Of a stretch of DNA of 64,000 bases, positions 38,109-39,533 are shown in pieces (position 1 is the stretch's first letter; each line of letters begins with the position of its first letter). This stretch comes from Enterobacteria phage vB_EcoM_IME281. The translations under genes were made by a program, and so were the position numbers. Under the pieces are notes generated by a model, which saw only the letters and a program-made list of their open reading frames with translations, searched no databases and was not told the DNA's origin. The stretch is taken from sequence record MH051913. One strand, written 5' to 3'.

Positions 38109-38237
38109 GAATTATGTGATATTATTACTCTATCATTAATACCCTCTATTACCAAAGGTTCTTCCCTCAAAGAGCCTTTCATAATAGACAAGGTCTATTA
38201 ATCAAACTTACTTTACTTAATTTTATTTGAGGTGTTT

Positions 38238-38504
38238 ATGTTAGTATTAAAATTAGCTTTTTATGACCCAGAAACCAAGACAACAACTACTAAACGTTGT
38301 TCTATTTCATATGAATGCCAATTTGGCGAAGTTGAGACCGACGGCGAGCCCTTTATGGCAATTGCCGATAGCACATTCGCTAAACCAAAAATAATTCCAC
38401 TAGTTAATGCTGCGGCTTATCTGGTTGCTCCTGAAGAAATGACTTATCATACAATTCAGCACATGGCTAAAGATGATAATGCTCCTGCTGGATTTGTAAT
38501 TTAA
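38238..38504 (+). CDS. Hypothetical protein immediately upstream of the tRNA cluster
   Basis: ATG with GAGGTG SD; 88 aa. Confidence 0.45.
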   Translation: MLVLKLAFYDPETKTTTTKRCSISYECQFGEVETDGEPFMAIADSTFAKPKIIPLVNAAAYLVAPEEMTYHTIQHMAKDDNAPAGFVI

Positions 38505-38509
38505 ATTAA

Positions 38510-38583
38510 GGCCCTGTAGCTGGACGGTCAAGCGAGCGACTCATAATCGCTGGATGGTGGTTCGATTCCACCCAGGGCCACCA
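38510..38583 (+). tRNA. tRNA with CAT anticodon (Met or Ile2-type), CCA encoded
   Basis: Hand-folded cloverleaf: acceptor GGCCCTG/CAGGGCC, anticodon stem AGCGA/TCGCT, loop CTCATAA, T-arm GGTGG-TTCGATT-CCACC. Confidence 0.7.
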
Positions 38584-38587
38584 ATTT

Positions 38588-38662
38588 GGATGTGTAGCTC
38601 AGCGGTAGAGCAGTTGACTGTTAATCAATTGGTCCATGGTTCGAATCCATGCATGTCCGCCA
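38588..38662 (+). tRNA. tRNA-Asn (GTT anticodon), CCA encoded
   Basis: D-stem GCTC/GAGC, anticodon loop CTGTTAA, T-arm CATGG-TTCGAAT-CCATG, acceptor with two G-U pairs. Confidence 0.7.
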
Positions 38663-38666
38663 AATA

Positions 38667-38742
38667 CGAGGCATAGCTCAGAAGGAAGAGCAACGGTCTT
38701 CTAAACCGTAGGTCGTAGGTTCGATCCCTACTGTCTCGACCA
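38667..38742 (+). tRNA. tRNA-Arg (TCT anticodon), CCA encoded
   Basis: D-stem GCTC/GAGC, anticodon stem ACGGT/ACCGT, loop CTTCTAA, T-arm GTAGG-TTCGATC-CCTAC. Confidence 0.75.
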
Positions 38743-38910
38743 AACAAGAAACCGGGTCGCTACCGGTAAGTCGTCGGACTGAAGCTCCCTGAATAAGACC
38801 CGACTTTAAGGCGTACATGAGTTGACCTCTTAAAGTCCCTTATCTCACAGCTGAAACGGCGCACCGAACACTTGCCTAGCAGGTGGAACCCCGACAAGGT
38901 TACCCTAGGT
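38743..38910 (+). ncRNA. Candidate small stable RNA downstream of the tRNAs (analogous in position to T4 RNA C/D)
   Basis: About 170 nt non-coding, GC-richer, several internal inverted repeats, ends at a strong terminator. Confidence 0.3.
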
Positions 38911-38913
38911 GAA

Positions 38914-38943
38914 AGGCCCTTCCGAAAGGTTGGGCCTTTTTTT
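38914..38943 (+). terminator. Intrinsic terminator (aggccc…gggcct + TTTTTTT); copy 1 of a duplicated module
   Basis: Stem followed by T-run; near-identical copy at 39538. Confidence 0.7.
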
Positions 38944-38944
38944 G

Positions 38945-38952
38945 TATAAATA
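38945..38952 (+). promoter_or_regulatory. Late promoter box TATAAATA
   Basis: 27 nt upstream of the ATG at 38979. Confidence 0.55.
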
Positions 38953-38978
38953 TACAGTAAACTAACTTAGGAAATAAT

Positions 38979-39533
38979 ATGAAACTTTTAAAATATTTGA
39001 GTTGGATTCTGTTGGTCCCACTAGATTTTATCTCTATGGTTCTAGCCGTTATCCTTGCGCCTTTTGTGGTTCCTTTTCATAATAAAAAGACTGGTAAATT
39101 GCCATACGGTTTTGATTGGATGATGACATACGATAATCCAATTGACGGCGATAAAGGTCATATTAAACGTTGGGCTAAAATCAGGAAAATGCCTGGTGGT
39201 GTTTATCTCCAGAGAGTAGCTTGGCTATGGCGAAATAAAGCTTATAACTTTGCTTATCATAAACTAGGCCGTGATTGTAGCTCGGAATTCCATTATCGTG
39301 GTAATCCTGACGTAGAATCAGGTTCTCCTGATAAAGCTCACCATGGTTGGTTGTGGATGTGGAATGATGACGCCTGGGGTGTATTTGCTTCAGTTCCTTA
39401 TCTTAAGGTCGGCGGAATCACATTTTACCTTCGCGTGTACTGTGGCTGGAAGCTTAAGAGTCTTTTGTCTCGTAAAATCCCTAAAGCTATGTTGGCCTTC
39501 CACGTGAACCCGTTCCGGTTCTACAAGAACTGA
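38979..39533 (+). CDS. Late-promoter-driven protein with N-terminal transmembrane anchor, Trp-rich C-terminal domain
   Basis: 184 aa; N-terminal hydrophobic helix LSWILLVPLDFISMVLAVILAPFVVPF. Confidence 0.5.
   Translation: MKLLKYLSWILLVPLDFISMVLAVILAPFVVPFHNKKTGKLPYGFDWMMTYDNPIDGDKGHIKRWAKIRKMPGGVYLQRVAWLWRNKAYNFAYHKLGRDCSSEFHYRGNPDVESGSPDKAHHGWLWMWNDDAWGVFASVPYLKVGGITFYLRVYCGWKLKSLLSRKIPKAMLAFHVNPFRFYKN

What the first reader, a model, noticed from the sequence alone, without database searches (positions are those of the whole stretch)
38510..38944. Three-tRNA cluster followed by a structured non-coding segment ending at a terminator
tRNAs with CAT, GTT and TCT anticodons are packed 4 nt apart, all with encoded CCA. 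The following 170 nt have no ORF, several internal inverted repeats and a strong terminator. T4 encodes two small stable RNAs of unknown function next to its tRNA cluster, so this may be an analogous stable RNA. The anticodons (Arg AGA, Asn, and CAT possibly reading AUA as Ile2) fit AT-rich phage codon usage.
Basis: partly seen in the sequence, partly recalled or inferred. Interest (0 to 1): 0.5.

Follow-up and report, generated by a model that had tools for sequence, protein, structure and literature searches.

The report
Phage tRNA trio plus rnaD RNA

Summary
Three tRNA genes (CAT, GTT, TCT; + strand, 4-nt spacers, CCA encoded) are confirmed by ARAGORN and Rfam. The window is a JS98-like T-even phage (Dhakavirus). 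The non-coding stretch has two modules. (1) 38744-38865 is the ortholog of T4 rnaD ("species 2 RNA"), as annotated in NC_000866. A covariance model built without this phage scores it 101.8 bits (E about 2e-23); the next hit in the window is 8.6 bits. (2) 38866-38944 is the trailer and intrinsic terminator that in T4 follow rnaC. rnaC ("species 1") is missing here, an arrangement seen in about 30 of about 700 records. rnaD has a covariation-supported fold: hairpin P1, a long-range helix P2 joining the two ends, stem P3 and a replaceable apical hairpin. Relatives occur in T4-like phages of Klebsiella, Enterobacter, Citrobacter, Cronobacter and Salmonella and in some Vequintavirinae, always inside tRNA arrays. 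No Rfam family covers it. The CAT tRNA is most likely tRNA-Ile2 reading AUA. The function of rnaD is unknown. Most likely it is cut out of the tRNA transcript by host tRNA-processing nucleases and persists as a stable RNA recognised by a host factor. Verdict: real, correctly interpreted, a new member of a known kind, of modest interest.

The parts
38510..38583 (+). tRNA with CAT anticodon, CCA encoded; most likely tRNA-Ile2 (C34 modified to lysidine, reads AUA) rather than tRNA-Met
   Evidence: ARAGORN. Rfam tRNA 62.6 bits. Best E. coli matches (80.5% over the full length) are annotated tRNA-Ile. It shares GGCCCTGTAGCT with the T4 gene annotated isoleucyl-tRNA, which also has CAT. C4:G69 and C5:G68 are read from the sequence.
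38588..38662 (+). tRNA-Asn (GTT), CCA encoded
   Evidence: ARAGORN. Rfam tRNA 71.0 bits.
38667..38742 (+). tRNA-Arg (TCT, reads AGA), CCA encoded
   Evidence: ARAGORN. Rfam tRNA 69.2 bits. Same tRNA species and position as T4 tRNA-Arg, upstream of rnaD.
38744..38865 (+). Ortholog of T4 rnaD (species 2 stable RNA), 122 nt; boundaries by homology to the T4 annotation
   Evidence: BLAST to T4. T4 reference annotation. Covariance model R1, built without the window or JS98, scores 101.8 bits, E 1.7e-23, full length. Covariation. Fold.
38751..38767 (+). P1 hairpin: ACCGG, loop GUCGCUA, CCGGU
   Evidence: 100% paired in 19 sequences, with compensatory A:U>G:C and C:G>U:A changes. Replaced by unrelated hairpins in the deeper branch.
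38770..38776 (+). P2 5' strand, GUCGUCG; pairs with 38857-38864
   Evidence: RNAalifold. Core 5 bp paired in 28/28 sequences with an invariant U.G wobble. G:C>C:G compensatory change in Merlin and CR9.
38777..38782 (+). Internal loop, 5' side: GACUGA (opposite GAAA at 38853-38856)
   Evidence: Invariant in T-even and E. coli Vequintavirinae copies but not conserved in the deeper branch.
38783..38797 (+). P3a (AGCU), CCC bulge (38787-38789) and P3b/c (UGAAUAAG): 5' strands of the long arm
   Evidence: Covarying pairs 44:116, 45:114, 46:113, 54:106, 56:104 and 57:103 in A2. CCCUG is nearly invariant across the family: C45 is 90% or more, the flanking bases are invariant.
38798..38838 (+). Apical hairpin P4, 'type A' (shared with JS98, VR25/L006 and KMB38); the replaceable module
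   Evidence: At least 5 unrelated apical sequences sit on the same scaffold, and each folds as a hairpin.
38839..38852 (+). 3' strands of P3c, P3b and P3a
38857..38864 (+). P2 3' strand, CGGCG-C-AC (C38862 bulged)
   Evidence: The T4 annotated 3' end lies one base past the equivalent of 38864.
38866..38913 (+). Conserved 3' trailer: hairpin T1 (CACUUGC/GCAGGUG, 38869-38885), the conserved stretch GGAACCCCGACAAGGUU, and small hairpin T3 (ACC/GGU)
   Evidence: 82% identical to the T4 sequence that follows rnaC. T1 has a G:C>A:U compensatory change. T3 alternates ACC/GGU with GCC/GGC or is absent.
38914..38944 (+). Intrinsic terminator: interrupted G+C stem (GGCCC..CC GAAA GG..GGGCC) plus U7
   Evidence: Folds. 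Conserved in 14/14 sequences with a C:G>G:C compensatory change. Annotated 'terminator' in some relatives.

Best explanation
The locus is the 3' end of the phage's tRNA transcription unit. Three tRNAs (Ile2-type CAU, Asn GUU, Arg UCU) are followed by the ortholog of T4 rnaD (species 2 RNA, 38744-38865), a conserved structured trailer and an intrinsic terminator. T4's second stable RNA, rnaC, is absent. Shown here: homology and synteny with T4 rnaD; a strand-specific, covariation-supported fold in which helix P2 joins the 5' and 3' regions into a closed rod carrying a 5' hairpin (P1) and a replaceable apical hairpin; membership of a family spread through tRNA arrays of Enterobacterales phages. 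Inferred: the whole unit is transcribed from an upstream promoter as one precursor. Host tRNA-processing nucleases that free the tRNAs also free rnaD. These would be RNase E plus 3' exonucleases after the tRNA-Arg CCA, and RNase P where a tRNA follows, as in Moonvirus. The sealed ends make rnaD nuclease-resistant, so it accumulates, as RNAD does in T4. Most speculative: the family-wide invariant parts are a sequence-specific docking site for a host (Enterobacterales) factor. These parts are the AA linker, the P2 helix with its U.G wobble and the CCCUG bulge. On this reading the RNA acts in trans as a decoy or modulator that affects success on particular hosts.
For: Identity: 92% and 87% identity to the T4 rnaD interval, which the T4 reference annotates as 'rnaD, small stable RNA; species 2 RNA', 2 nt after tRNA-Arg. 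Gene order in JS98 and T4 is the same: trna.4-trna.3-trna.2 ... tRNAs ... e.8-e.6. Model R1, built without the window, scores 101.8 bits, E 1.7e-23; the next hit is 8.6 bits. Structure, T-even set: 96.5% of cells paired, 8 pairs with double changes, 0/500 shuffles reach this, slid registers give 32-51%. Structure, family-wide set: 92.2% paired, covariation score 0.32 against 0.11, 0/500. 17 of 19 single-sequence MFE folds give the same architecture. Strand: invariant U.G in P2; z = -2.0 on + and -0.03 on -. Biogenesis context: the element directly follows a tRNA CCA (window, T4, Providencia, Karam-, Jiaoda- and Moonvirus, A7_1). In KM16 and CR9 it ends 5-7 nt before the next tRNA. Expression in T4: RNAC and RNAD are classed as late RNAs from RNA-seq, with a Northern blot using an RNAC probe (PMC9697503). 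Trans function: a single T>C SNP in the rnaD region was the only mutation shared by three lines of T4-like phage BW1 whose virulence on ECOR34 rose from 0.17 to 0.98 (PMC12685909). rnaD is kept where rnaC has been lost. The same cassette occurs in Vequintavirinae, which argues for a host rather than a phage partner.
Against: There are no expression data for this phage. The mature ends are transferred from the T4 annotation. In the context of the whole 202-nt segment, the MFE fold replaces P2 with a local GUCG/GGAC hairpin. P2 has only one covarying pair, in 2 of 28 sequences; otherwise it is invariant, which neither supports nor refutes pairing. The function of RNAC and RNAD is stated to be unknown (PMC3014915). 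From memory, T4 deletions of the tRNA region are viable on laboratory hosts. The BW1 SNP could not be placed on the structure, and the authors call their own analysis exploratory. No partner protein or target RNA was identified, and no similar sequence exists in 5,426 E. coli genomes.
Confidence: 0.85

Rival explanations
1. The element works only in cis, as a processing or stability module of the tRNA precursor, like a structured external or internal transcribed spacer. On this view it protects the tRNA-Arg 3' end or organises nuclease entry, its accumulation is a by-product, and it has no function of its own.
For: It is always embedded in tRNA arrays and usually abuts a tRNA CCA or the 5' end of the next tRNA. 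No function has been found in 50 years (PMC3014915). The tRNA partner varies: Arg, Asn, Ile2 or Lys.
Against: In Mosigvirus and some Tequatrovirus phages it follows an ORF stop codon, not a tRNA. A generic protective hairpin would not need an invariant helix sequence, an invariant U.G wobble and a near-invariant CCCUG bulge across genera while other parts are freely replaced. The BW1 adaptive SNP maps to the rnaD region.
Confidence: 0.3
2. The conservation reflects a DNA-level element, such as a homing-endonuclease or recombination target in the mobile tRNA region, and not an RNA.
For: Homing endonuclease genes lie in or next to this region in T4 (segB) and in AnYang, IME540, LHE83 and PSTCR6. 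Modules (rnaC, the apical hairpin, tRNAs) are gained and lost as cassettes.
Against: Compensatory changes preserve pairing. Invariant or frequent G.U pairs would be A.C on the other strand. Only the + strand shows fold stability above shuffles. T4 RNAD is reported as an RNA accumulating late in infection.
Confidence: 0.04
3. The segment encodes a small protein, as many GenBank records imply with 'hypothetical protein' CDSs over it.
For: ORFs of 45-46 aa exist on the - strand and of 25 aa on the + strand. Some records annotate CDSs there.
Against: JS98, 99% identical overall, differs by a 2-nt indel inside these ORFs. Other relatives differ by 5- and about 20-nt indels and by unrelated central sequence. 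The substitution pattern is paired-column covariation, not codon-like.
Confidence: 0.01
4. The element is a self-cleaving ribozyme of hammerhead type, because CUGAUG ... hairpin ... GAAAC resembles the hammerhead core.
For: T4-type copies read GGA-CUGAUGU-[hairpin]-GAAAC.
Against: Rfam finds no hammerhead or other ribozyme hit even at E<=10 or E<=1 on T4. The nucleotide at hammerhead position 7 covaries with the base before GAAA, so it is paired, and 'A9' is a pyrimidine. The flanking arms pair with each other to form P2. CUGA and GAAA are not conserved in the deeper branch.
Confidence: 0.01

Closest known systems
Bacteriophage T4 rnaD (species 2 RNA; misc_RNA T4s002 in NC_000866)
   Same: It is homologous in sequence: 92% over the 5' 59 nt and 87% over the 3' 30 nt. 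It has the same position directly after tRNA-Arg(UCU), the same strand, the same P1/P2/P3 scaffold, and about the same length (122 against 119 nt). Function is unknown in both.
   Different: The apical hairpin is unrelated in sequence (type A here, type C in T4). P3a has A:U and C:G where T4 has U:A and U.G. The 3' tail reads CACCG, not CACCA. It is followed directly by the trailer, not by rnaC. It is not annotated in JS98-type records.
Bacteriophage T4 rnaC (species 1 RNA)
   Same: It belongs to the same T4 locus and is likewise a stable RNA of unknown function released from the tRNA transcript. The trailer and terminator that follow rnaC in T4 are present here.
   Different: There is no counterpart in the window. 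The rnaD 3' end is fused to the trailer (GGCGCACCGAA|CACTTGCC). rnaC is tRNA-like (T-arm; weak tRNA-Sec hit), and rnaD is not.
3' external transcribed spacer of the E. coli glyW-cysT-leuZ tRNA operon (3'ETS-leuZ), an sRNA sponge (recalled from the literature, Lalaouna et al. 2015; not checked here)
   Same: It is a non-tRNA piece of a polycistronic tRNA transcript. It is released by the nucleases that mature the tRNAs and persists to act in trans.
   Different: There is no sequence or structural similarity. 3'ETS-leuZ includes the terminator and acts by base pairing with sRNAs on Hfq. Neither is shown for rnaD, which ends upstream of the terminator.
tRNA-Ile2 (ileX/ileY of E. coli, ileZ of Stx phages, T4 tRNA-Ile)
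   Same: It has a CAT anticodon and a G1:C72 acceptor beginning GGCCC with C4:G69 and C5:G68. It is about 80% identical to E. coli genes annotated tRNA-Ile. It sits together with tRNA-Arg(UCU), as in Stx phages and T4.
   Different: The lysidine modification is not demonstrable from sequence. ARAGORN and most phage records label it tRNA-Met.

Membership tests
T4 rnaD / species 2 RNA family | Sequence homology to the interval annotated rnaD in the T4 reference genome | tested here: met
   54/59 and 26/30 identities to T4. That interval is misc_RNA rnaD, 'species 2 RNA', in NC_000866.
T4 rnaD / species 2 RNA family | Location in the phage tRNA cluster, same strand, directly downstream of tRNA-Arg(UCU), in conserved gene order | tested here: met
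   It starts 2 nt after the tRNA-Arg CCA in both phages. Flanking genes are trna.4/3/2 and e.8/e.6.
T4 rnaD / species 2 RNA family | Shared secondary structure (P1, long-range P2, P3, apical hairpin) scored by a model that did not see this sequence | tested here: met
   R1 was built from 13 other members. The window scores 101.8 bits, E 1.7e-23, model positions 1-121/121.
T4 rnaD / species 2 RNA family | Accumulates as a discrete stable RNA of about 120 nt in infected cells | not testable with these tools
   Reported for T4 only: RNAC and RNAD classed as late RNAs by RNA-seq, with a Northern blot using an RNAC probe (PMC9697503). No data exist for JS98-type phages.
T4 rnaC / species 1 RNA | Sequence homologous to T4 rnaC between rnaD and the trailer | tested here: not met
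   No alignment to T4 L001 2622-2760. The direct rnaD-trailer junction is shared with about 30 records, while rnaC is present in 740 records.
tRNA (Rfam RF00005) | Cloverleaf scoring above the gathering threshold; anticodon assigned | tested here: met
   62.6, 71.0 and 69.2 bits against 29. ARAGORN assigns CAT, GTT and TCT.
tRNA-Ile2 (lysidine-modified CAU) | CAT anticodon with a body related to known tRNA-Ile2 genes rather than to tRNA-Met or fMet | tested here: met
   Best E. coli matches, 80.5% over the full length, are annotated tRNA-Ile by PGAP. Relatives are annotated tRNA-Ile or ileZ. The T4 gene annotated isoleucyl-tRNA also has CAT.
tRNA-Ile2 (lysidine-modified CAU) | TilS determinants C4:G69 and C5:G68 (recalled from the literature) | tested here: met
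   Acceptor GGCCCUG/CAGGGCC, read from the sequence. That these pairs are the determinants is from memory.
tRNA-Ile2 (lysidine-modified CAU) | C34 actually converted to lysidine and the tRNA charged with Ile | not testable with these tools
   Needs mass spectrometry or tRNA-seq.
Intrinsic (Rho-independent) terminator | G+C-rich hairpin immediately followed by a U-tract, conserved | tested here: met
   38915-38936 hairpin plus U7. 14/14 conserved with one compensatory pair. Missed by the simple scan because of the interrupted stem.
Hammerhead ribozyme | Unpaired CUGANGA and GAA core at a three-way junction | tested here: not met
   No Rfam hit. Core positions 7-9 are base-paired and covary. The arms pair with each other. 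The core is not conserved in the deeper branch.
Any Rfam 15 family | Match at or near the gathering score over 38743-38944 | tested here: not met
   The best hit is BjrC68 at 22.8 bits against a gathering score of 39, over the terminator. Nothing matches T4 rnaD.

The most novel reading that the evidence does not exclude
rnaD is not a T4 curiosity. It may be one member of a widespread, structurally defined RNA class carried in the tRNA arrays of Enterobacterales phages from two subfamilies (about 740 T-even-type plus about 180 deeper-branch records). Its invariant P2 helix (with a U.G wobble) and near-invariant CCCUG bulge would dock a host factor. The RNA would then act as a decoy or modulator that sets infection success on particular hosts, for example by counter-defence or by interfering with host RNA processing. 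The convergent rnaD-region SNP that rescued growth of phage BW1 on ECOR34 hints at this.
Probability: 0.2. Interest if true: 0.7.

Novelty: new member of a known kind. Interest (0 to 1): 0.35.

Why it matters
For this window, the result gives a correct annotation. JS98-type genomes list the three tRNAs but not the rnaD ortholog, and many related records place spurious 'hypothetical protein' CDSs over it. More broadly, RNAC and RNAD have been known since the 1970s and still have no function. This work supplies a covariation-supported fold and a list of invariant against replaceable parts. It shows that rnaD is kept where rnaC is lost. It also shows that the family reaches Klebsiella, Enterobacter, Citrobacter, Cronobacter and Salmonella T4-like phages and some Vequintavirinae. 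Together with the published adaptive SNP, this turns a vague 'stable RNA of unknown function' into a set of specific mutants and pull-down baits to test. The family is also a candidate for a new Rfam entry.

Tried and rejected
(1) Rfam at gathering and at permissive E-values, on the window and on T4, found only tRNAs and chance-level hits (YrlA, Plastid-ycf2 and BjrC68 all overlap tRNAs or the terminator).
(2) The hammerhead reading of CUGAUG...GAAAC was rejected.
(3) A tRNA-like 3' CCA end was rejected. T4 (CACCA) and the Providencia phage (GCCACCA) have it, but the window (CACCG), JS98 (CACAG), JS09 (CAAAG) and others do not.
(4) IMG/VR and metagenome pattern scans were run. A short gapped pattern gave 70 loci, of which only 2 new ones were real by nhmmer. 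A pattern leaving P2 free found only T-even-like copies with identical P2.
(5) A host homolog or prophage copy was sought in E. coli genomes; none was found at E<=1.
(6) A second copy in the window was sought with nhmmer and with the unfiltered covariance model; none was found.
(7) Mapping the BW1 adaptive SNP onto the structure failed. The paper's coordinates are ambiguous and the data are on Zenodo only.
(8) Older primary literature (Miller 2003, p2Sp1 processing papers) is not held. Statements about RNase P/E processing of the T4 precursor are therefore from memory.
(9) Sigma-70 promoter scan: hits are at chance level (6 against 6.9 expected). No promoter could be assigned to the tRNA unit.
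Full report
OBSERVATION. ARAGORN finds exactly three tRNA genes in the 64-kb window: CAT 38510-38583, GTT 38588-38662 and TCT 38667-38742, all on the + strand. Rfam's tRNA model scores them 62.6, 71.0 and 69.2 bits against a gathering score of 29. The sequence shows 4-nt spacers and an encoded CCA on each. The stretch 38743-38944 has only short ORFs and matches no Rfam family, even at E<=10.

WHAT GENOME. The region 38200-39300 is 99.7% identical to Escherichia phage UP19 and 99.3% identical to JS98 (Straboviridae, Tevenvirinae, Dhakavirus). JS98 annotates the three tRNAs but nothing between tRNA-Arg and the next ORF.

IDENTITY OF THE NON-CODING SEGMENT. A sensitive BLAST of 38743-38944 finds 738 phage records. 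In T4 it lands on the interval around 'rnaC', as two pieces spread over about 340 bp. Pairwise comparison with T4 resolves this:
- Window 38739-38797 matches the sequence directly after T4 tRNA-Arg (54/59 identities).
- Window 38839-38868 matches the sequence just before rnaC (26/30 identities).
- Window 38867-38941 matches the sequence after rnaC, up to the terminator (62/76 identities).
The T4 reference record annotates the first interval as misc_RNA rnaD, 'small, stable RNA; species 2 RNA'. It starts 2 nt after the tRNA-Arg CCA and ends at ...GGCGCACC. By homology the window's rnaD is 38744-38865. T4's rnaC ('species 1 RNA') has no counterpart, and the rnaD 3' end is joined directly to the trailer. 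That junction occurs in about 28-30 of about 700 records, mostly Dhakavirus, whereas rnaC is present in 740 records.

STRUCTURE OF rnaD. Nineteen distinct copies were aligned: T-even types, a Providencia phage and the Vequintavirinae phage A7_1. RNAalifold predicts four elements:
- A 5' hairpin, P1.
- A long-range helix, P2, pairing GUCGUCG (38770-38776) with CGGCG-C-AC (38857-38864).
- A stem, P3a/b/c.
- A central region that does not align.
For that structure, 96.5% of cells are standard pairs and 8 pairs carry compensatory double changes. None of 500 column shuffles reaches this, and sliding the partners by 1-3 columns drops pairing to 32-51%. An example visible by eye: CUGA-A-G...CAGC-U-G in the window type against CUGA-U-G...CAGC-A-G in the T4 type. 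The central region comes in at least five unrelated sequence types, each of which folds as a hairpin on the same scaffold. Seventeen of 19 single-sequence MFE folds reproduce the whole architecture. For the window copy, the MFE equals the centroid and equals the comparative model (-35.0 kcal/mol, 26% of the ensemble, z = -2.0). The reverse strand gives z = -0.03.

A DEEPER BRANCH. Using the divergent A7_1 and then the KM16 copy as queries uncovered relatives in 179 further records. They occur in Moonvirus (KM16, Merlin), Karamvirus (PG7, KaAlpha, Pet-CM3-4, CkP1, myPSH1140), Jiaodavirus (KP182, RCIP0032, JD18) and Vequintavirinae (W70, CR9). In most of them the element lies between tRNA-Asn and tRNA-Asp. 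In KM16 and CR9 it ends only 5-7 nt before the next tRNA. In this branch:
- P1 is a different hairpin (for example AUCAGAAG-ACG-UUCUGAU).
- P3a covaries (UAAU/AUUA, AAUU/AAUU, UGUU/AACA).
- P2 shows a compensatory G:C>C:G change in Merlin and CR9.
On the 28-sequence alignment, 92.2% of cells pair and the covariation score is 0.32 against 0.11 in shuffles (0/500). The five core pairs of P2 hold in 28/28 sequences, with an invariant U.G wobble. The AA linker, GUCGUC and GGCG are invariant or nearly so across the family, and the CCCUG bulge is nearly invariant (its middle C is 90% or more). P1, the P2/P3 internal loop (GACUGA/GAAA in T-evens) and the apical hairpin are not conserved.

FORMAL MEMBERSHIP. 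A covariance model was built from 13 members, excluding the window and JS98. It scores window 38744-38866 (+) at 101.8 bits, E 1.7e-23, full length. The next hit in 64 kb, both strands and unfiltered, is 8.6 bits. The same model recovers the Certre-, Moon- and Karamvirus copies at E 1e-13 to 3e-5 and the Jiaodavirus copies weakly.

TRAILER AND TERMINATOR. The stretch 38866-38944 is conserved whether or not rnaC precedes it. It contains:
- Hairpin T1 (CACUUGC/GCAGGUG), with one G:C>A:U compensatory change.
- A conserved stretch, GGAACCCCGACAAGGUU.
- An optional small hairpin (ACC/GGU against GCC/GGC).
- An interrupted G+C stem followed by U5-7, with GGCCC/GGGCC against GCCCC/GGGGC.
The trailer folds at -31.1 kcal/mol, z = -2.9. 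A T4-type late-promoter motif, TATAAATA, starts one base after the terminator's U-tract, so the terminator closes the tRNA unit and the next gene has its own promoter. Sigma-70-like hits upstream are at chance level. The promoter of the tRNA unit was not identified.

THE tRNAs. The closest relatives of the CAT tRNA in 5,426 E. coli genomes (80.5% identity, full length) are annotated tRNA-Ile. The T4 gene annotated isoleucyl-tRNA likewise has a CAT anticodon and the same acceptor start, GGCCCTGTAGCT. Relatives include ileZ of Stx phages. The acceptor has G1:C72, C4:G69 and C5:G68, and the anticodon stem lacks the three G:C pairs typical of initiators (sequence; their significance is from memory). 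So tRNA-Ile2 reading AUA is the best assignment. In the window's ORFs of 150 aa or more, AGA is 11.8% of Arg codons and ATA 12.8% of Ile codons, and G+C is 39.9%. From memory this is roughly twice the E. coli frequencies, which gives mild support for the codon-supply argument.

HOW IT MOST LIKELY WORKS. Three things are shown here: homology with an RNA reported to accumulate in T4 infection, a strand-specific conserved fold, and constant embedding in tRNA arrays. Two further steps are inferred. First, one precursor is transcribed through the tRNAs, rnaD and the trailer to the terminator. Second, the nucleases that mature the tRNAs also release rnaD, whose ends are sealed by P2 and P1 and which therefore persists. 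In T4, RNAC and RNAD are classed as late-accumulating RNAs from RNA-seq, with a Northern blot using an RNAC probe (PMC9697503), and their roles are stated to be unknown (PMC3014915). The pattern of an invariant helix sequence with a U.G wobble and a near-invariant CCCUG bulge, next to freely replaceable parts, argues for sequence-specific recognition. The presence of the same cassette in two phage subfamilies that share only their hosts, together with the absence of any host homolog, points to a host factor as the partner. One genetic hint of a trans role exists: a single T>C SNP in the rnaD region was the only change shared by three lines of T4-like phage BW1 whose virulence on ECOR34 rose from 0.17 to 0.98 (PMC12685909). 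Its position on the fold could not be determined.

RIVALS. A purely cis-acting spacer role remains possible (about 0.3). It fits poorly with copies that follow ORFs rather than tRNAs, and with the sequence invariance. DNA-level, coding and ribozyme readings are rejected by covariation with G.U pairs, by indel patterns, and by Rfam together with the pairing of the would-be hammerhead core.

VERDICT. It is a new, unannotated member of a known kind, of modest interest. The added value is a family-wide structural model for an RNA whose function has been open for decades.

Noticed in passing
window 38945-38952: A T4-type late promoter motif, TATAAATA, starts one base after the terminator's U-tract and 27 nt before the ORF at 38979-39533. 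The window has 16 such motifs against 7.1 expected by chance.
   Followed up: partly
L009 324-391, L008 1039-1105 (-), L010 248-314: A 'mini-rnaD' of about 66 nt lies between tRNA-Arg and the full rnaD in some phages. It keeps a P1-like hairpin, AAGCCGUCG, GACUGA and CGGCGCAAC but lacks the long arm (covariance model 13 bits, E about 0.15). It may be a decaying tandem duplicate or a minimal version.
   Followed up: partly
L061 980-1073 (-); L001 2622-2760: ARAGORN calls the rnaC position of one phage a 94-nt 'tRNA-Stop (tta)', and T4 rnaC gives a weak tRNA-Sec hit (17.5 bits). rnaC therefore looks like a degenerate or expanded tRNA, unlike rnaD.
   Followed up: partly
L094 417-557, L097 419-543, L091 830-955: In Karamvirus and Jiaodavirus a further 125-140-nt spacer lies between the rnaD-like element and tRNA-Asp. 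In Karamvirus its ends can pair (UUUACUUUCG ... CGAAAGUAAA). It has no Rfam hit and may be a second stable RNA at the position where T4 has rnaC.
   Followed up: partly
L016 1418-1593 (phage A7_1), L099 (W70): Vequintavirinae phages carry a CAT tRNA 93% identical to the window's, directly followed by an rnaD copy. This suggests lateral transfer of a tRNA+rnaD cassette between phage subfamilies.
   Followed up: partly
L103 (T4 NC_000866) vs L001 (T4 GT7), rnaD P3a region: The T4 reference reads CUGAUGGUUCCC where T4 GT7 and all other copies read CUGAUGUUCCC. This is a one-base difference inside P3a of rnaD.
   Followed up: no
window 38785: Among the 28 aligned family members, this window alone has C at the third position of P3a, giving C:G instead of U.G. 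This is a T>C difference of the same kind as the adaptive SNP reported in phage BW1, but no link could be established.
   Followed up: partly
related GenBank records (e.g. RB51ncORF141c): Many deposited T-even genomes annotate 'hypothetical protein' CDSs across rnaD and rnaC. Several (T4 GT7, ATK47) annotate rnaC but not rnaD.
   Followed up: no
L001 1751-2416; L015 751-1416; hits H7, H9, H25: GIY-YIG or other homing endonuclease genes are inserted at varying places in the tRNA/rnaD region of related phages (segB in T4). This fits the cassette-like gain and loss of tRNAs, rnaC and apical hairpins.
   Followed up: no
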